NCBI GenBank assembly: GCA_951406725.2
Contig: OX597840.1
Span: 496,001-560,000, forward strand
Source of the DNA: Octopus vulgaris
Taxonomy: Eukaryota
Length of the DNA: 64,000 nt
Direction of reading: 5' to 3'
Shown: piece after piece, positions 8,623-63,274 of the stretch
Layout of the letters: every line of letters begins with the position of its first letter
How positions within the stretch are numbered: the stretch's first letter is position 1
Notes under the pieces: model-generated
Seen by the model: only the letters and a program-made list of their open reading frames with translations
Databases searched by the model: none
Told to the model about the DNA's origin: nothing
Translations under genes and position numbers: made by a program

Positions 8623-9089
8623 TATGTATATATATGATGTCATCTGTTGATTATATATATATATGTCAACATGCAGTTAGTAAAAACTTTTCCCTCCCCC
8701 ATCCCGTTAAACGCTGTCATCACTACAAATCGGCATGTGACATGTAACAATGAATCACATCCATTCTCCTGGGACAAGCCAGCTTCCATATTGTGATAAC
8801 ACTCAACAACAACAATATCAACCAGAACAGCAATAACCTAAATCTTCTCCAGTTCCCTCTCTTCGTCATTCGTTCAACAGTTAAAAACGTGTGATGTTTT
8901 TATGTTATCAATATTACTTTCTATAGTGAAAGTGAAAGTAGACGTAATGTCTCGCTGTGGAAAAAGTGACTGCTTTATAGCATTGCTAGAAATGATGTCA
9001 TCACTAAATAGTCGTAAACACTAGCGTATTCGATTGGTTTCTCAGACAGGTATGCCAACCAATCGCACCGTTTAGAATGATCGTCATCT

Positions 9090-9257
9090 GGCTGGTAGAA
9101 ATGTTAGTAAGTCGGAGAAAATACTTTAGTGGCATTTCGTTCGTCTTTACCTTCTGAGTTCAAATTCCACCGAAGTCGATTTTGCCTTTCATCATTTCGG
9201 GGTCGATAAGTTAAGTACGGGCGTGTGCCTAGAGTAGAAAAGCTTATTATTATTATT
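9090..9257 (+). mobile_element. SINE family B, old-tail type, internally deleted
   Basis: B-box GAGTTCAAATTCC, core GTCGATTTTGCCTTTCATC..GGGGTCGATAA, tail GTGCCTAGAGTAGAAA then (TAT)n. Confidence 0.75.
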
Positions 9258-12066: not shown

Positions 12067-12300
12067 CTATTTTACTATTTTACTCTTTTACTCTTTTACT
12101 TGTTTCAGTCATTTGACTGCGGCCATGCTGGAGCACGGCCTTTTAGTCAAGTAACTCGACCCCGGGACTTATTCTTTGTAAGCCCAGTACTTATTCTATC
12201 GGTCTCTTTTGCCGAACCGCTAAGTGACGGGGACGTAAACACACCAGCTTCGGTTGTCAGGCAATGCTAGGGGGACACACAATTACACACAAACACATAC

Positions 12301-12331
<31 letters not shown>

Positions 12332-12498
12332 CATATATACGACAGGCTTCTTTCAGTTTCCGTCTACCAAATCCACTCACAAGGCTTTGGTCGGCCCGGG
12401 GCTATAGCAGAAGACACTTGCCCAAGGTGTCACGCAGTGGGACTGAACCCGAAACCATGTGGTTGGTAAGCAAGCTACTTACTACACAGCCACTCCTG
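12065..12498 (-). mobile_element. SINE family A (tRNA-like head, internal TA/TG microsatellite, CR1-like tail), full length
   Basis: A-box-like TGGCTGTGTAGT, B-box-like GGTTCAGTCC, tail CCAGCATGGCCGCAGTCAAATGACTGAAAC(AAGAGTA)n; at least 10 copies in the window. Confidence 0.9.
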
Positions 12499-14793: not shown

Positions 14794-15119
14794 GGTCAGG
14801 GGTTAGAGCGTCGAGCTTATGATCGTGAGGTTGTGAGTTCGATTTCCGGAACGGGCTGCGTGTTGTGTTCTTGAGCAAAACACTTTATTTCACGTTGCTC
14901 ACAGTTCACTCAGCTGTAGAAATGAGTTGTGACGTCACAGGTACCAAGCTGTATCGGCCCCTTTGCCTTTCCCTTGGACAACATCGGTGACGTGGAGAGG
15001 GGAGACCGGTATGCATGGGCGACTGCTTGTCTTCCATAAACAACCTTGCCTGGACTTGTGCCTGGGAGGGTAACTTTCTAGGTGCAATCCCATGGTCAGT
15101 CATGCCCGAAGGGTGTCTC
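14794..15119 (+). mobile_element. tRNA-headed SINE with CORE-like domain (tail Z)
   Basis: GGTTAGAGCG..GAGTTCGATTTCC head, then TTGTGTTCTTGAGCAAAACACTTTATTTCACGTTGCTC..CAGCTGTAGAAATG resembling the CORE domain. Confidence 0.7.
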
Positions 15120-21397: not shown

Positions 21398-21626
21398 GGT
21401 GAGCTGGCAGAACTGTTAGCACGCCGGGCAAAATGCTGAGCGGTATTTCGTCTGCCGTTACGTTCTGAGTTCAAATTCCGCCGAGGTCGACTTTGCCTTT
21501 CATCCTTTCGGGGTCAATAAATGAAGTACCAATTACGCACTGGGGTCTTTGTAACCGACTTAATCCCTTTGTCTGTCTTTGTTTGTCCCCTCCATGTTTA
21601 GCCCCCTGTGGGCAGTAAAGAAATAT
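21398..21626 (+). mobile_element. SINE family B monomer, young (Tx1-like) tail; central region resembles the Nin/Deu SINE domain
   Basis: Head GAGCTGGCAGAA..GAGTTCAAATTCC, core GGTCGACTTTGCCTTTCATCCTTTCGGGGTC, tail TTAGCCCCCTGTGGGCAGTAAAGAAATA. Confidence 0.88.
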
Positions 21627-23259: not shown

Positions 23260-23549
23260 TTGATAAAACGGTAAGATAACAAAAGAAAGAAAGAGACCTC
23301 AATATTATGTAAATAGAGGAAATTTATCTATACAATATGTTACATTACTCGGTAGTCAAGATAAAACTCTGAGTTTCAGATGCCGAAGTGGAAATCCACA
23401 ACACCATCTCTTCGGTTATCTGGCTATTTGAAAACGTTATGAAAATATACCGTTAAAAATACCGTTAAAAATGAAGAGATGGTGTTGTGGATTTCCACTT
23501 CGGCATCTGAAACTCAGAGTTTTATCTTGACTACCGAGTAATGTAACAT

Positions 23550-23555
<6 letters not shown>
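23260..23555. mobile_element. Family F element plus inverted partial copy, in (TA)n
   Basis: 23260-23436 is a minus-strand copy; 23474-23555 is an inverted copy starting at GAAGAG. Confidence 0.8.
23359..23421 (-). ncRNA. Type-I hammerhead-like motif, core variant CCGAAGA
   Basis: AGATAA-CCGAAGA-GATGGTG..CGGCATC T-GAAA CTCAGAG T T-TTATCT: 6-bp stem I in exact register, near-palindromic stem III, GUU site. Confidence 0.65.
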
Positions 23556-24657: not shown

Positions 24658-24842
24658 GGCGGTAAGCAGACACAAACCTTACAGCGCCGGGCGAAATGCT
24701 TAGATGCATTTCGTCCGCTTTCACGTTTTGAATTCAAATGTCAACGAGGTCAAATTTGCCGTTCATTTTTTCGGAGTTCGACAATACCAGTTGAGCCTAT
24801 CTCCCTAAAATGCTGGCCTTGTGCCAAAATGTAAACCCAATA
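24658..24842 (+). mobile_element. Old SINE family B (old tail GGCCTTGTGCCAAAAT)
   Basis: CGCCGGGCGAAATGCTTAG..GAATTCAAAT..GAGGTCAA. Confidence 0.7.
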
Positions 24843-24848
24843 AGAGTC

Positions 24849-25023
24849 GAGGCGCGTGGCTTAGTGGTTAGGGTGTTGGAGTCATGATTGTAAGATGGTG
24901 ATATCGATTCCTGGACCGAGCGACTCGTTGTGTTCTTGAGCAAAACCCGTCATCTCACGTTGCTCCAGTCCAATCAGCTGGCAAAGAAGAGTCAGCCTAC
25001 GACGGACTGGCATCTTGTCAAGG
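24849..25023 (+). mobile_element. CORE-like tRNA SINE with tail Y start
   Basis: GGCGCGTGGCTTAGTGGTTAGGG head, TTGTGTTCTTGAGCAA core, CCTACGACGGACTGGCATC shared with the tail at 60165-60180. Confidence 0.7.
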
Positions 25024-25412: not shown

Positions 25413-25802
25413 ATACTCTTTACTCTTTTACTTGTTTCAGTCATTTGACTGCGGCCATGCTGGAGCACCGCCTTTAGTCGAGCAAATCAACCCCGGGACT
25501 TATTCTTTGTAAGCCCAGTACTTATACTATCGGTCTCTTTTGCCGAACCGCTAAGTGAAGGGGACGTAAACACACCAGCATCAGTTGTCAAGCAATGCTA
25601 GGGGAACAAACACACACAAACAAACACATACACTTATATATATATACATATATACGACAGGCTTCTTTTCAGTTTCCGTCTACCAAATCCACTCACAAGG
25701 CATTGGTCGGCCCGGGGCTATAGCAGAAGACACTTGCCCAAGATGCCACGCAGTGGGACTGAACCCGGAACCATGTGGCTGGTAAGCAAGCTACTTACCA
25801 CA
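25413..25802 (-). mobile_element. SINE family A, slightly 5'-truncated, flanked by a 92-bp direct repeat
   Basis: Flanks 25321-25412 and 25802-25893 match at 89/92. Confidence 0.9.
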
Positions 25803-28659: not shown

Positions 28660-29385
28660 ATATTACATTATTCTTGAGGATCATAAATCGTACTTTATGA
28701 ACGATCTCATTATTTTATCGATAAATCAAGTAGAGAGAAAATTAGGATGAATGAGTGACTACAACAGAATCAACAATATCTCATTTTAAGGATAACGTTT
28801 CGGATTAATATTGTAGCAATAATGAGCTGATTTGGAATCAGATATGATAAATATAAACGAATTTTCTTCTCAATCGGATATCATTGATTACTGTCTATTC
28901 AGGACTGAGCCTTAAGAGGGAAAATGGAGGAGGGGAGGGATAAGTGTGGAAGATTGCGTGCGTATCGAAGTCGAGAGCTTAATGAGATCCCAAAACCAGA
29001 GTAAGGAAACCTTGCTGGTGACCGTTAAGAACGAGGGAATATTGACAGCAGAGAAAAAGAGAAAACAACGTACAAAAAGGGCATGAAAAAGAATAGGTAG
29101 GATTGGCTGATAAAAGGAACCCTAAAAAAGAGACAGAGAGAACTATTCTGGCAGCGCAAGACCAAGCTTTGGCCACGAAGTGGAGGATCAATCTTAGAAA
29201 TGAGCAAACGTCTCCGGTGTGCCACGTCTGAAACAGAGTGGATGAAATCATTGCCCATATCACGAACAAATGCCCTAGACTTGCTCAAAACCATTGCAAG
29301 TTGTGGCGACACGACCAAGTAGCGAATGTGCTACATTGGAAACTGTATGAAAAAGTGGGGGTCTAGAGAGAGGCAAGACGTAGTA
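28660..29385 (+). mobile_element. R4/Dong-like (RLE-type) non-LTR retrotransposon relic
   Basis: Degenerate YFMNDL (FMDDL-like) near 28690, then WLIKGTLK/ETERTILAAQDQALAT..PVCHV*..DEIIAHITNKCPRLAQNHCKLWRHDQVANVLHWKL (CCHC knuckle plus RHD motif). Confidence 0.8.
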
Positions 29386-30238
29386 TGCCCCACCTGCGCC
29401 AGCCTCGTTACCCACCCTGTCTCTGATGTAGCGGATGAAGTGGAGGTTGCCGTGGATAGACCTGGTCGGTACGGCGCATTTCTGCGCCTTGCCAATCAGC
29501 TTGTCCACGACAAGCGCCAACCGCTTCGCTAGCACCTTGGCCAAAATCTTCAACTCAGCATTGAGCAGAGTGATGGGCCTAAAGTTCCCTATCTCGTCCC
29601 GCTTGTTTGGGCCCTTTCTCAGCAAAGCCACCATTCCTCGACAAACAAAAGCAGGATTTCTCCCGTTTTGTTGCCAGTTGCAGTAGACGTTGGTCAAGAG
29701 GCCCGCAAACAAGTCTGGCATTGATGTGTAAAGCTTGCAGGGAAGACCGTCTAAACCCGGCGATCTACCTCTCGTGCAGCTTTTCATCGCTTCCTCTACT
29801 TCCTAGGCAGATATCGGCCTTTGGCAGCACTCCGCCTCGCTGGCCGAGAGTTGCAGTAGGCCGTCCAGGTACACACTGAAGTCTGTCCCGTTGTCTGTCC
29901 CACCGTTTGTCCCGAACAGTCGAGCAAAATGCTGCTGAAAGACCGCACATATCTGCTTCGGTTCGGAAACCTCGCGCCCATTCTGGTCTACCAAAGACCG
30001 ATTGGTTGCTTTGTTGCCGCGCTTCGCCTCCGCCACGCGGACCCATCGAGCGGCCTTAGTTCCCTCCCCGCTTACCGAAAGTGCCTTAGCTCTGACAACG
30101 CAGCCTTCGTGTTTGGCGTGAAAGTGTTGATCGAGGGCCAACTTGGCTGCCAACACGTCGGTTGCGATGGCTGCCACACGACACTCGTCTAGTTTTCTAA
30201 CTAAATGCCGCTCTCTTTCCTTTTGTTCTACAGCTAGA
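29386..30238 (-). mobile_element. Tx1/L1-clade LINE ORF2 fragment (linker and RT N-terminal domains)
   Basis: GCVVRAK..HFARLF..*EVGEAMKSCTRGRSPGLDGLP..NFRPITLLNAELKILAKVLAKRL..AQKCAVPTRSIHGNL; one in-frame stop; GC-rich relative to flanks. Confidence 0.9.
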
Positions 30239-30754
30239 TTTGCTGATCGAAAAGGAAAAGATGTAGCGTCTAAAAACGGTTACAATACCAGTGGTTGTAG
30301 GAGCACTTTGGATGATCAAAAAATGAAGTGAATGATCCCTTACATATCATCCATGCTGGAAGTGCAAAAGATAGTCTAAACTGGTATGTCACATGAGGAA
30401 GAGCAATGTCACAGTGAACTTTCTTGCCTTCTTTGCTCTTTATTTTCCTTGCTTCCATTTTTTCATTTTATCTTTGTTTCGTTTTTTTTTTCCTTTTCCT
30501 TTCTGTCTTTCTTCCTCTTCGTCTTCTATCACATGACTTTGTGAATGAAAAATCTGGTGCCTTTCTTTATTTTAATGGCCTAACAATGCATACAGTGAGT
30601 TTCTCTGCCCTAGGTGTTAGGAAGACGCTCAGCAAGAAATGGAAACACAATTGAAAGAGGATAATAATAACAATAATAAAGATAATAATAATAATAATAA
30701 CAACAACAACAACAACAGCAACAATAATAACAATAACAACAACAACAACACCAC

Positions 30755-32522: not shown

Positions 32523-32905
32523 GTGGAGGCGCAATGGCCCAGTGGTTAGAGCAGCGGACTCGCGGTCGTAGGATCGCGGTTTCGATTCCCAGACCGGGCG
32601 TTGTGAGTGTTTATTGAGCGAAAACACCTAAAGCTCCACGAGGCTCCGGCAGGGGATGGTGGTGATCCCTGCTGTACTCTTTCACCACAACTTTCTCTCA
32701 CTCTTACTTCCTGTTTCTGTTGTACCTGTATTTCAAAGGGCCGGCCTTGTCACTCTCTGTGTCACGCTGAATATCCCCGAGAACTACGTTGAGGGTACAC
32801 GTGTCTGTGGAGTGCTCAGCCACTTACACGTTAATTTCACGTGCAGGCTGTTCCGTTCATCGGATCAACCGGAACCCTCATCGTCGTATCCGACGGAGTG
32901 CTTCC
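32523..32905 (+). mobile_element. SINE family C (tRNA head, module C, tail X), full length with 11-bp TSD
   Basis: A box TGGCCCAGTGG, B box GTTTCGATTCC; ATTTACGTGTA at 32512-32522 and 32906-32916. Confidence 0.9.
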
Positions 32906-43100: not shown

Positions 43101-43259
43101 ATATTGTTGTATTTAGGAATGGTCATTTTGCCAGTTTAGCCAATAAAATTACACGCACTATATATTTGGTGTTACTTTGCTTCAGTAACACCAAATATAT
43201 AGTGCGTGTGCTTTTATTGGCTAAACTGGCAAAATGACCATTCCTAAATATAACAATAT
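43101..43259. repeat. Hairpin: 76-bp inverted arms, 7-nt loop
   Basis: 43101-43176 versus 43184-43259, about 3 mismatches. Confidence 0.95.
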
Positions 43260-43659
43260 ATGTTTCAACATACGATTTCACATCAAAAATCTTGCAAAAC
43301 AAATATATAAACGTAATAATAATAATACTTTGTCACATAGGCAGATGACATGAAATTTGTATCGAAGTGAAGAGTCAAATATCCTGTCTCTAGCACATGC
43401 CATGTACATTACCTAATTGATACCGAAAGGTGAGGTAAATGTGATCTTGGAGTAATTTAAAGTCAGAACTTAAACCGCTGTATGTATATAATGCAAGACA
43501 ACTTGCCTCAGGCTTGAATAATTTTAGGAAATTCTAAAACGAAAGACAACCTGGAATCATGTGTCATTCAGTTGCTAATAATTACTTTAGAACTCCACGT
43601 GGTGTGGCGAGCAGAGATAAGGCGCCACCACGTCTAGTAATCGAATCTACGATCAAATA

Positions 43660-44435
43660 TATTTCTTTACTACCCACAAGGGGTTAAGCATAGAGGAGAC
43701 AAACAGGGACAAAGGGAAGTCGATTACATCGACCCCAGTGCGAAACGGGTACTTCATATATCGACCCCCGAAAGGATGAAAGGCAAAGTCGACCTCGGCG
43801 GAATTTGAACTCAGAACGTAACGACAGACGAAATACCTATTTCTTTACTACCCTCAAGGGGCTAAACACAGAGAGGACAAACAAGGACAGACAAAGGAAT
43901 TAAGTCGATTATATCGACCCCAGTGCGTAACTGGTACTTATTTAATCGACTCCGAAAGGATGAAAGGCAAAGTCGACCTCGGCGGAATTTGAACTCAGAA
44001 CGTAACGACGGACGAAATACCTATTTCTTTACTACCTACAAGGGGCTAAACACCGAGGGGACAAACAAGGACAGACAAAGGGATTAAGTCAATTCTATCG
44101 ACCCAGTGCGTAACTGGTACTTAATTTATCGACCCCGAAAGGATGAAAGGCAAAGTCAACCTCGGCGGAATTTGAACTCAGGACGTAACGACGGACGAAA
44201 TACCTATTTCTTTACTACCCACCAGGGGCTAAACACCGAGGGGACAAACAAGGACAGACAAAGGGATTAAGTCGATTATATCGACCCCAGTGCGTAACTG
44301 GTACTTTATTTATCGACTCCAAAAGGATGAAAGGCAAAGATGGCCTCGGCGGAATTTGAACTCAGAACGTAACGGTAGACGAAATACCGCTAAGCATTTC
44401 GCCCGGCGTGCTAACGTTTCTGCCAGCTCTCCGCC
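43660..44435 (-). mobile_element. SINE family B array: one head plus four tandem bodies, within a single ~14-bp TSD
   Basis: Units 43660-43837, 43838-44021, 44022-44204, 44205-44388; head 44389-44435; TCTACGATCA(A/T)ATA at 43646-43659 and 44437-44450. Confidence 0.92.
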
Positions 44436-44570
44436 CTCTACGATCATATAGTCTTGACTATAACTTACGCATGCACTTACTCAGAAAGAGATGCACGTTA
44501 ATATAAACACTCGTACATGCATAAATACGTCCATAGAAACCTTCCAGGTGTATTATATTTAGTAGCTCTA

Positions 44571-49197: not shown

Positions 49198-49229
<32 letters not shown>

Positions 49230-49608
49230 CTTCTTCTTCTTCTTCTTCTTCTTCCAATCAGGACTCACGCCATTAGCCACAAAGAATAATCTCTAATTCG
49301 AGCCTACTCTAAGCTACTAAGAGTGCGTGTGGCAACTTGAAGATCCACCCACCACACGCGATAGACTGGCAGTTGCACGGGCGCGAAAGCTACGTTGTTA
49401 TCCTCATTCCGTAAACGGTGGCTTTTAACGGGTGGAAAGCTGAACCATCCTGGGGTACAGAGGATTCACAATTTAGACTAGGGTCTGAAAGTTAACCACA
49501 CCATAGTGGGTTACACCATGGTTCCTCTGCTTTGCGTCAGAAGTACGAAGAAAGAGTGAGAGAAAGTTGTGGTGAAAGAGTACAGCGGGGTCCACAATCT
49601 CCTCCCGG
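48960..49608 (-). mobile_element. 5'-truncated SINE (module C + tail W) with long GAA/GAG tail
   Basis: 49254-49608 is the reverse complement of 54619-54980; tail spans 48960-49253. Confidence 0.8.
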
Positions 49609-53059: not shown

Positions 53060-53239
53060 GTATTAACGGCAGCGTCAGCAAAAAATATCTGAGCTGGAAA
53101 ATGATGGAGAATAACATTGGTTGGTGTTGAAATAACAGCGGTGGAGTGATGGTGGTGGTGGTGGTGGTGATGGTGGTCGTGGTAGGAGGGAGTAGAGATG
53201 TGTGACGACTAAAGAATATTTAATATTTAAAGATATGAA

Positions 53240-53824
53240 GGCGGCGAGCTGGCAGAAACGTTAGCACGCCGGGCGAAATGCGTAGCCGTATTTCGTCTGC
53301 CGTTACGTTCTGAGTTCAAATTCCGCCGTGGTCGACTTTGCCTCTCATCCTTTCGGGGTCGATTAAATAAATACTAGTTACGCACTGGGGTCTATATAAT
53401 CGACTTAATCCCTTTGTCTGTCCTGGGTTGTCAACTCTGTGTTTAACCCCTTGTGGGTAATAAAGAAATAGGTATTTCGTCTGCCGTTACGTTCTGAGTT
53501 CAAATTCCGCCGAGGTCGACTTTGCCTCTCATCCTTTCGGAGTCGATAAATTAAGTACCAGTTACGCACTGGTATATATATATGTAATCGACTTAATCCG
53601 TTTGTCTGTCCTTGTTTGTCCACTCTGTGTTTGGCCCTTTGTGGGTAATAAAGAAATAGGTATTTCGTCTGTCTTTACGTTCTGAGTTCAAATTCCGTCG
53701 AGGTCGACTTTGCCTTTCATCCTTTCGGGATCGATAAATAACGTACCAGTTGCATACTGGGTTCGATCCAATCGACCGACGCCCTCACCAAAAATTTCGG
53801 GTTTTGTGCCTAGAGAAGAAAATT
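53240..53824 (+). mobile_element. SINE family B array: head + two young-tail bodies + one old-tail body
   Basis: Junctions GAAATA|GGTATTTC at 53470/53471 and 53658/53659; the third body ends in GTGCCTAGAGAAGAAAA. Confidence 0.9.
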
Positions 53825-53843
53825 ATATTTATAGATATGAAAG

Positions 53844-54452
53844 CTTGCTTAGCAGCATTTCGGCCGTCTTCACGTTCTGAATTCAAATGACGCCGAGGTC
53901 GGCTTTGTCTTTCTTCCTTTTCGGGGTCAATAAAATAAGTACGCGATGAGCAACGGATTGAATGTAATGGGGTTGACCCCTCCGCCAACATTCCTGACCT
54001 TGTGTCAAACTTTGAAAGTAATATTTATAGATGAGAAAACGGTGAGGTGGCAAAGTCTTTTGCACGCTGGATAAAATGCTTCGTCGCATTTCGTCCATCT
54101 CTACCATCTGGGTTCAAATTCCACCGATGTCGACTTCGTCTTTATTTCGTTACGGTATCTGGAAAAGAAGTATCAGCTTGGCGCTTAAGTCGATTTAATC
54201 CACTTAGTTCCTCATCAGAAATTTCTGGCCTTGTGCCAAAATTTGAAAGCTGTATTTCAGAGATATGAAGGCATCGAGCTGGCAGAATCTTAACACGCCG
54301 GACGAAATACCGTTAAGCATTTTGTCCGACTTTTTGGCCTTTCATCCTTTTCTGGGTTGATAAAAGAAGTGTATGTCTAGGACTGGGACTGATGCCATCG
54401 ACATACCGACGCCCACAAAATTAATGGTCTTGTGTAAAAGTATGAAGCCAAT
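53844..54452 (+). mobile_element. Three further diverged old-tail SINE B copies, head-to-tail, separated by an ~18-bp recurring spacer
   Basis: ATATTTA(A/T)AGATATGAA-like spacer at 53223, 53825, 54021 and 54252. Confidence 0.75.
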
Positions 54453-54458
54453 ATTCAT

Positions 54459-54610
54459 TTATTTTTTATTGCCCACAGGGGGCTAAACATAGAGGGGACA
54501 AACAAAGACAGACAAAGGGATTAAGTCGATTATATCGACCCCAGTGCGTAACTGGTACTTATTTAATCGACCCCAAAAGGATGAGAGGCAAAGTCGACCT
54601 CGGCGGAATT
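54459..54610 (-). mobile_element. SINE family B young-tail body, 5'-truncated
   Basis: GGGGCTAAACATAGAGGGGACAAAC..GTCGACCTCGGCGGAATT. Confidence 0.85.
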
Positions 54611-54618
54611 CCAACTTA

Positions 54619-55426
54619 GGATCCGGCGGGGAGGGGTGGTAAACCCCGCTGTACTCTTTCACCACAACTCTCTCTTACTCTTTCTTCCTTCTTTTGACAC
54701 AAAGCAGAGGAACCATGGTGTAACCCCTTATAGTGTGGTAAGCTTTCAGACCCTAATCTAGATTGCGAATCCTCTGTTTTCTAGGATGGTTCAGCTCTCC
54801 ACCCGTTAAAAGCCACTGTTTACGGAATGAGGATAACAACGTAGCTTTCATGCCCGTGCAACCGCCAGTCTATCGCGTGTGGTGGGTGGATCTTCAAGTT
54901 GCCACACGCATTCTTAGTAGCTTAGAGTAGGCTCGAATTAGAGATTATTCTTTGTGGCTAATGGCGTGAGTCCTGATTGGAAGAAGAAGAAGAAGAAGAA
55001 GAAGAAGAAGAAAAAGAAGAAGAAGAAGGAAGTGGAGGAGGAAGAAGGAGAGGATGAAGAAGTGGAAGAAGAAAATGAAGAGGAAGTAGAAGAAGAAGAA
55101 GAAGAAGAAGAAAAAGAAGAAGGAGGTGGAGGAGGAGGAGGAGAAAAAGAAGAGGAAGAAGAAGAAGAAGAGGAAGAAGTGGAGGAAGAAGAAGAGGAGG
55201 AAGAAGGAGGGGAGAATGAAGAAGTGGAAGAAGAAAATGAAGAGGAAGTAGAAGAAGAAGAAGAAGAAGAAGAAGAAGAAGAAGGAGGTGGAGGAGGAGG
55301 AGAAAAAGAAGAGGAAGAAGTAGAAGGGGAGGAGGAAGAAGAAGCAGATGAAGAGGTAAAAGAAGAAGAAGAAGAAGAAGAAGAAGAGGAGGAAGAAGAA
55401 GAAGAGGAGGAAGAAGAAGAAGAAGA
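54619..55426 (+). mobile_element. 5'-truncated SINE (module C + tail W) with ~445-bp GAA/GAG tail
   Basis: GCTGTACTCTTTCACCACAACT shared with family C; ends CCTGATTG(GAA)n. Confidence 0.8.
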
Positions 55427-62890: not shown

Positions 62891-63273
62891 CTTTTACTCT
62901 TTTACTTGTTTCAGTCATTTGACTGCAGCCATGCTGAAGCACAGCCTTTAGTCGAGCAAATCGACCCCGGGACTTATTCTTTGTAAGCCCAGTACTTATT
63001 CTATCGGTCTCTTTTGCCAAACTGCTAAGTGACGGGGACGTAAACACCAGCGTCGGTTGTCAAGCAATGCTAGGGGGACAAACACAAACATACACGCACA
63101 CATATATATACATATATACAACGGGCTTCTTTCAGTTTCCGTCAACCAAATCCACTCACAAGGCTTTGGTCGGCCCGAGGCTATAGTAGAAGACACTTGC
63201 CCAAGGTGTCACGCAGTGAGACTGAACCCGGAACCGTGTGGTTGGTAAGCAAGCTATTTACCATGCATCCACT

Positions 63274-63274
<1 letters not shown>
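62891..63274 (-). mobile_element. SINE family A, near full length
   Basis: Collinear with the other copies. Confidence 0.9.

What the first reader, a model, noticed from the sequence alone, without database searches (positions are those of the whole stretch)
53223..53842. Mixed-tail array: two young bodies nested inside an old-tail SINE
Seen: head + young body (184) + young body (188) + old-tail body, bracketed by ATATTTA(A/T)AGATATGAA. The spacer-to-spacer distance of 602 minus 372 gives 230, matching the 231-bp period of the neighbouring unexpanded unit (54021 to 54252). Inference: a complete old SINE was expanded by insertion at the head site. A single rolling-circle event cannot give two tail types, so this favours nested targeting.
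Basis: partly seen in the sequence, partly recalled or inferred. Interest (0 to 1): 0.7.

Follow-up and report, generated by a model that had tools for sequence, protein, structure and literature searches.

The report
Octopus SINE trimer with mixed tails
A short jumping-gene copy in an octopus genome is built of three parts from two sister families of the same age, joined at one exact hairpin position and probably inserted in one piece; similar multimers are known in clams and reptiles, but the mixing of tails is unusual.

Summary
The anatomy is real: one head, two bodies with tail Y (184, 188 bp) and one body with a different tail B, bracketed by a 17-bp direct repeat; the arithmetic is right. 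But the last body is not old: its core is as diverged as the two Y bodies (7/103 each) and far less than the neighbouring units (20-26%). It belongs to a sister subfamily seen in Octopus bimaculoides gene models. The bracket is a target-site duplication (TSD); a Y-only tetramer 9 kb away has its own. All 5 internal junctions are identical and fall on the first base after the loop of the head hairpin. In both arrays the last body looks like another lineage than the inner ones. Best reading (0.5): one read-through chimeric SINE RNA, copied from a composite source or formed by template switch, inserted once into the pre-existing TSD of an older SINE cluster. Nesting into a resident tail-B copy remains possible (0.27). 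The 230/231 match does not discriminate. The empty allele and genome-wide survey could not be run. A new variant of known SINE multimers; moderate interest.

The parts
53223..53239 (+). Left TSD / spacer S1 (preceded by a 7-nt partial repeat of its own start at 53216-53222)
53240..53286 (+). SINE head: box A-like at 53250-53260, 5' arm (53270-53282) and 4-nt loop (53283-53286) of a 13-bp hairpin
   Evidence: 3 substitutions from the tetramer head, 2 of them a compensatory pair
53287..53470 (+). Body A, 184 bp: 3' hairpin arm, box B-like (53314-53323), shared core, tail Y
53471..53658 (+). Body B, 188 bp (4-nt TA expansion), tail Y; shares 3 real variants with A
53659..53824 (+). Body C, tail-B subfamily from its first bases; tail B from about 53777; same core divergence as A and B
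53825..53841 (+). Right TSD / spacer S2
53842..54020 (+). U2: old 5'-truncated tail-A copy (20% diverged)
54021..54251 (+).
54252..54451 (+). Spacer S4 plus U4: old copy with internal deletion (23% diverged)
54460..54619 (-). I: inverted, 5'-truncated tail-Y copy abutting a probable fifth spacer remnant (about 54451-54459)
   Evidence: the spacer remnant is inference
43646..44450 (-). Comparison locus: head + four tail-Y bodies (Q1-Q4) bracketed by a 14-bp TSD (44437-44450 and 43646-43659, 13/14 identical)
21398..21625 (+). Comparison locus: stand-alone tail-Y monomer M (no clear TSD)
9084..9243 (+). Comparison locus: stand-alone tail-B copy with internal deletion, followed by an ATT-like repeat

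Best explanation
The trimer is one retrotransposition product. Only the head has box A, and no run of four T lies between the head and tail B, so RNA polymerase III can read head-Y-Y-B as one RNA (inferred). That chimeric RNA, either transcribed from a composite source locus or assembled when the reverse transcriptase, starting on a tail-B RNA, paused at the head hairpin and switched to a head-Y-Y RNA, was inserted by a LINE enzyme into the 17-bp sequence that was already the TSD in front of an old SINE cluster, duplicating it once more. Shown: one TSD pair around the whole, no target remnant inside, equal divergence of the three bodies, identical junctions at the hairpin, C of another subfamily. 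Inferred: transcription, partner LINE, whether the chimera pre-existed (I favour a composite source, about 0.35 of the 0.5) or arose in this event (about 0.15).
For: Single TSD around each of 2 of 2 arrays. A, B, C each 7/103 diverged; TSD copies 1/17 apart. 5 of 5 internal junctions identical, GAAATA|GGTATTTCG, whereas 2 of 3 terminal Y ends read GAAATA|TATTT: a copied, not freshly made, junction. Junction = first base of the 3' arm of a 12-13-bp hairpin. One box A, one box B per body; the only T4 run in the trimer is inside tail B at 53802. A and B share 58C and 179A, absent from all four tetramer bodies (2 of 56 arrangements, my hand count), so they came together. Head G pairs with the first base of A (C), while C begins with G. 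Arrays are 2 of the 4 tail-Y loci with a core in 64 kb, a high rate for secondary hits.
Against: No second copy of this trimer was found: none in the window and no Y-tail-then-B-body junction among 87 proteins examined (weak test, it needs an open frame across the junction). The last body looks like a different lineage in both arrays, which is just what nesting into resident monomers predicts. A tail-B monomer of O. bimaculoides has the same head peptide as the Y tetramer (P0005), so head type cannot assign the head. Equal age does not exclude nesting if the two families were active together. One T4 run lies in the first body of the tetramer (may postdate insertion).
Confidence: 0.5

Rival explanations
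1. Nested retro-targeting at this locus: a tail-B monomer inserted first and made the TSD; later a head-Y-Y RNA that ended in the first bases of a next unit (GGUAUUU, a weak polymerase III stop) primed at the matching site in the resident head, and its cDNA head annealed to the resident head, giving a seamless join.
For: Last body differs in both arrays: at Y column 158, 5 of 5 inner bodies have G, 3 of 3 terminal Y bodies have A, and 10 of 10 usable diverged Y-tail peptides imply A (one false regex match dropped). The head site contains TATT, as do the starts of 2 of 3 TSDs. TATTT is treated as a SINE terminator in PMC8466645 (passages). Precise 5' joins by annealing to upstream target are described for R1 (PMC2718515, passages). 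The switch to tail-B type lies within 16 nt of the junction.
Against: No age gap between C and A/B, nor between Q4 and Q1-3 in the core. The column-158 pattern is post hoc (1 of 56 for the column; rank 4 of 56 on summed shared variants). Needs efficient second hits. Head appears to come with A.
Confidence: 0.27
2. DNA-level repair: a break in the resident tail-B monomer at the hairpin was repaired from a Y array elsewhere (ectopic gene conversion), copying head-Y-Y in.
For: Mosaic copies exist: I is A-like in the core and M-like in the tail; P0003 has tail B with Y-type 5' body letters. Gives the same sequence as nesting.
Against: A homology-driven exit could fall anywhere in about 125 shared bases; it falls in the first 16 (about 13%, my arithmetic). 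Does not explain how the junction arose.
Confidence: 0.12
3. In-place growth: a head-Y-B dimer expanded by unequal crossover between its own cores, as proposed for bivalve and reptile SINE arrays.
For: In the tetramer Q1/Q2 share a 3' variant and Q2/Q3 share 5' variants, with a divergence minimum of 8/184 in a shifted register.
Against: It predicts C-type bases in the 5' part of B; B has Y-type bases at columns 14, 16 and 99-105. Units within arrays are not closer than between arrays (9.7% vs 11.3%; permutation 292 of 840). Cannot create the second tail.
Confidence: 0.05
4. Assembly chimera joining a Y array to a tail-B copy through the shared core.
For: The core is shared by very many copies.
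Against: Left and right flanks carry the two copies of one TSD, which a mis-join of two loci would not preserve.
Confidence: 0.03

Closest known systems
Bivalve SINE multimers TSD1-(SINE)n-TSD1 (Scapharca broughtonii; PMC11481361, section read)
   Same: One TSD pair, first unit with complete head, later units all truncated at the same head position, last unit with a different 3' end.
   Different: There the inner units have a truncated form of the same tail. Here the inner tail Y is complete (it ends stand-alone copies) and unrelated to the terminal tail B.
Bivalve TSD1-(SINE-TSD1)n arrays (same paper) and R1 tandem arrays made by insertion into an existing TSD (PMC2718515, passages)
   Same: U1-U4 are each preceded by a copy of one spacer; a young element re-used the TSD of an older one.
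   Different: Bivalve units are highly similar; here they are 29-43% apart and of two or three tail types. R1 is an autonomous, site-specific element of rDNA.
SINE-derived satellites of squamates (sSat; PMC10702118, parts 1-4 of 5 read)
   Same: Repeat unit shorter than the SINE, starting inside the head and holding box B; longer leading or trailing unit.
   Different: Here 3-4 units, TSD-bracketed, no homogenisation within loci, and two subfamilies in one array.
Dimeric/multimeric SINEs such as Alu and the B2/Dip multimers (PMC8466645 passages; PMC3531059 passages)
   Same: Same open question: insertion of one SINE into another versus copying from a multimeric template.
   Different: Those multimers are of full-length units joined through tails; here units lack box A and join at a hairpin inside the head.
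Animal non-LTR retrozymes (10.64898/2026.07.22.740005, abstract only)
   Same: Short tandem units, proposed rolling-circle copying.
   Different: No hammerhead core or Rfam ribozyme match here; a polymerase III head is present.
Octopus OR1/OR2 SINEs (Ohshima and Okada 1994; not read, seen only as cited)
   Same: tRNA-like octopus SINE; likely the same or a related family (recalled lead).

Membership tests
tRNA-derived SINE | Short, interspersed, many copies | tested here: met
   9 separate loci in 64 kb; matches in named O. bimaculoides gene models. Genome copy number not counted.
tRNA-derived SINE | Internal polymerase III boxes A and B | tested here: met
   Box A-like in each array head, box B-like (one extra base) in every body; sequence match only.
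tRNA-derived SINE | At least 60% identity to a tRNA | tested here: inconclusive
   ARAGORN 0 genes; no Rfam tRNA match; no direct tRNA alignment was possible.
tRNA-derived SINE | Variable-length TSDs | tested here: met
   Significant in 4 of 9 elements tested (17, 14, 15, 12 bp); not found in 5.
tRNA-derived SINE | 3' end shared with a partner LINE | tested here: inconclusive
   No tail match to a LINE in the masked self-comparison; one RT fragment at 29278-29802 shows no link.
Octopus OR1/OR2 (CORE-SINE) | Identity to the published consensus and CORE domain | not testable with these tools
   Supplements unavailable or without the motifs.
Bivalve TSD1-(SINE)n-TSD1 multimer | One TSD pair, full head first, same head truncation after | tested here: met
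Bivalve TSD1-(SINE)n-TSD1 multimer | Inner units carry a truncated version of the terminal tail | tested here: not met
   Tail Y vs tail B local score 13, background; tail Y is complete in M and Q4.
Bivalve TSD1-(SINE-TSD1)n array | Units separated by the same TSD | tested here: met
   S1-S4
Bivalve TSD1-(SINE-TSD1)n array | Highly similar units | tested here: not met
   29-43% core distances among C, U2, U3, U4
SINE-derived satellite (sSat) | Unit shorter than the SINE, from part of it | tested here: met
   184-bp unit lacking the first 47 nt
SINE-derived satellite (sSat) | At least four middle monomers, within-locus homogeneity | tested here: not met
   1 and 2 middle units; within vs between 9.7% vs 11.3%
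Non-LTR retrozyme | Hammerhead ribozyme in each unit | tested here: not met
   0 CTGANGA cores on either strand of either array; Rfam to E=10: 0 matches in 53220-54630 and 1 irrelevant match in 43640-44460

The most novel reading that the evidence does not exclude
The inner tail-Y body is a promoter-less passenger lineage that never ends an insertion: it propagates only inside other copies of its own SINE superfamily, entering at one hairpin position either by targeting the head sequence of resident copies or as a circular or array RNA that the reverse transcriptase switches onto after starting on a normal monomer. That would be a SINE parasitising SINEs, building arrays whose last unit is always a different, stand-alone subfamily.
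Probability: 0.22. Interest if true: 0.72.

Novelty: new variant of a known kind. Interest (0 to 1): 0.42.

Why it matters
SINEs are about 12% of the O. vulgaris genome (PMC13282606, passages), and arrays are 2 of the 4 tail-Y loci with a core here. For mammalian SINE multimers it is stated as unknown whether they form by nesting or are copied from multimeric templates (PMC8466645). Mixed arrays with unrelated tails and one fixed junction label each unit by origin, so that question can be settled from public octopus assemblies alone. They would also show tail exchange between SINE subfamilies caught in the act. No function for the host is implied.

Tried and rejected
Single-sequence protein search with the frame spanning the B|C junction: no candidates. 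Rfam: only microsatellite noise, nothing on the SINE. Retrozyme model rejected (no hammerhead). My first argument that the head is 'young-type' was dropped after P0005 showed the same head on a tail-B monomer. Clustering of units by array was not significant (292 of 840 permutations). Column 108 sharing is an alignment artefact and was left out. P0009 (repetitive, no SINE anchor) was left out. U2-U4 as an ancient duplication of one unit could be neither shown nor excluded (36-43% apart, as far as dispersed copies). Ten paper searches found no description of these octopus arrays; subscription papers, Repbase/Dfam entries, SINEBase alignments and bioRxiv supplements were not visible and may describe them.

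Full report
Setting. The window is microsatellite-rich animal DNA. A profile of chance translations of the repeat matches named Octopus bimaculoides gene models P0001-P0005 and P0008, so the window most likely comes from an Octopus species; I did not identify the record. The repeat occurs at 9 separate loci in 64 kb, with one core and three tails: A (old copies, 16-26% diverged), B and Y (2-8%).

Observation. The layout and numbers are right: repeats at 53223 and 53825, 602 apart; bodies of 184 and 188; 230 left over; neighbour period 231. The repeat pair is 16/17 identical, abuts the head and lies 2 nt after the tail; 0 of 300 random 35-mers scored as high. It is a TSD, since a second array of four Y bodies at 43660-44436 is bracketed by its own unrelated 14-bp repeat (1 of 300) and an old monomer by a 15-bp one. 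5 of the 9 elements tested gave no TSD.

The last body is not old. At 103 core columns where Y and old majorities agree, A, B and C each differ at 7; U2 and U3 differ at 21 of 103 and 26 of 101 (C vs young p=0.49; vs U2+U3 p=2.4e-4). The sample is small and C's figure includes subfamily-specific bases, so it is an upper bound. C is a tail-B copy from its start: in the minus-strand frame it reads KDRRN where Y bodies read NGRRN or NDGRN, as do 3 of 5 named tail-B copies (P0001, P0002, P0005); P0008 has the K and then leaves the repeat; P0003 reads NGRRN, a mosaic. The 231-bp neighbour is tail A and 33% from C. The length match therefore only says that head + one body + TSD is one monomer long, which every model predicts. 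A level of about 6% fits the SINE/LINE burst at JC 0.065 reported for O. vulgaris (PMC13282606, passages), if the species is close.

The junction. Bodies begin inside the tRNA-like region; each has a box B-like motif, and only the head has box A. The head folds into a 12-13-bp hairpin with a 4-nt loop, and bodies start at the first base of its 3' arm. All 5 internal junctions of the two arrays read GAAATA|GGTATTTCG; 2 of 3 terminal Y ends read GAAATA|TATTT. Local recombination through the TATTT or GAAAT microhomologies would give other junctions (inference), so the junction is inherited or made by a very exact process. Against the tetramer head the trimer has three substitutions, two of which turn a T-G pair into G-C (about 1% by chance, my estimate). 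The C of that pair is the first base of A; body C begins with G. This ties the head to A, unless units are counted one base later, which cannot be excluded. Head type as such is uninformative, because tail-B monomer P0005 has the same head peptide as the tetramer.

Relations among units. Within-array distances are not smaller than between-array ones (9.7% vs 11.3%; shared variants 292 of 840 permutations). Yet A and B (and copy I) share two variants that all four tetramer bodies lack, so A and B probably came from one donor. B has no C-type bases, which rules against growth from a head-Y-B dimer in place. The last unit is the odd one in the tetramer too: at column 158 the 5 inner bodies have G and the 3 terminal Y bodies A, and 10 of 10 usable diverged Y-tail peptides imply A (11 matches, one false one dropped).

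The spacer level. The same spacer precedes U2, U3 and U4. These are old tail-A copies 36-43% apart. The young trimer cannot be their duplicate, so it inserted into an existing TSD, as R1 elements do (PMC2718515, passages). An inverted Y copy abuts a probable fifth spacer. P0005 shows a tail-B end directly before the head of another tail-B copy, so such tandems occur elsewhere. Nested targeting is thus well supported for the spacer and unproven for the head site.

Outside evidence. Of 88 proteins held, 87 were screened for module order. None shows tail Y directly before a tail-B body, a weak negative. P0041 shows tail Y at the same site but without the GG. Four unnamed, strongly diverged hits (P0026, P0063, P0064, P0074) show tail Y after about ten codons of head, a second register. 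Two (P0005, P0024) show tail B upstream of another unit, but with a head between. These are chance translations and of unknown species where unnamed.

Mechanism. Best (0.5): one insertion of a read-through chimeric RNA, head-Y-Y-B; the only T4 run in the trimer is in tail B. A composite source is the economical version, since one rare chimera is then amplified, and it explains one TSD, equal ages, identical junctions and the high share of arrays; a template switch at the hairpin during this insertion is the other version. Rivals: nesting into a resident tail-B copy by an RNA ending in the next unit's first bases (0.27; TATTT as terminator in PMC8466645, passages; annealed 5' joins in PMC2718515); ectopic conversion (0.12); in-place growth (0.05); assembly error (0.03). 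The first three give the same sequence at one locus and need the ortholog or the genome survey.

Known systems. Both architectures, TSD-(SINE)n-TSD with a fixed head truncation and TSD-(SINE-TSD)n, are described in the blood clam (PMC11481361, section 15 read, passages), and SINE-derived tandem repeats in squamates (PMC10702118, parts 1-4 of 5). It works like these but fails their tail and homogeneity features. It is not a retrozyme. Identity with octopus OR1/OR2 is a recalled lead, untested (PMC4758252, PMC4824008, PMC3531059, PMC5804259, PMC12988792: passages only; supplement searches gave nothing, and one file was not searched). Ten searches found no account of these arrays in octopus; the library lacks most subscription papers and repeat databases.

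Verdict. Real feature, partly misread; new variant of a known kind; interest 0.42. The boldest reading left open, a promoter-less passenger body that lives only inside sister SINEs, has probability about 0.22 and would deserve about 0.72.

Noticed in passing
window 43646-44450 (-): Four-body Y array with its own 14-bp TSD; the last body Q4 is of a different Y lineage, and Q1-Q3 show a mosaic sharing pattern suggesting later exchange between neighbours.
   Followed up: yes
window 53223-54619: Five or six SINE copies of three tail types and two age classes piled on one spacer sequence, an insertion hotspot.
   Followed up: partly
window 53216-53222: The first 7 nt of the left TSD are repeated directly in front of it.
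   Followed up: no
window 24838-24980: An old tail-A copy is followed within 10 nt by the head of another tRNA-like repeat (related copy at 14798-14916).
   Followed up: no
window 12101-12498 and about ten other loci (e.g. 25419-25799, 62893-63274): A second abundant dispersed repeat of about 390 bp with an internal CA/TA microsatellite between two conserved blocks.
   Followed up: no
window 54627-55028 and 49206-49607: Inverted pair, 92% alike, of another repeat (third copy near 32641-32901); it truncates the inverted SINE copy I.
   Followed up: no
window 29278-30279 (-): Broken reverse-transcriptase fragment (weak RVT_1 match).
   Followed up: partly
window 9084-9243: Tail-B copy whose core is only 8% diverged while its head differs at 20 of 59 positions from the trimer head; unexplained.
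   Followed up: no
proteins P0026, P0063, P0064, P0074, P0041: Chance translations suggest a second array register about 30 nt further into the head, and a junction variant without the GG.
   Followed up: partly
proteins P0001-P0004: Named O. bimaculoides gene models (an aminopeptidase-like, a kelch-like, a PLAT-domain protein) contain antisense SINE-derived peptide stretches: exonisation or annotation error.
   Followed up: no
window 43115-43245 and 23333-23553: Long near-perfect inverted repeats, probably small DNA-transposon derivatives.
   Followed up: no
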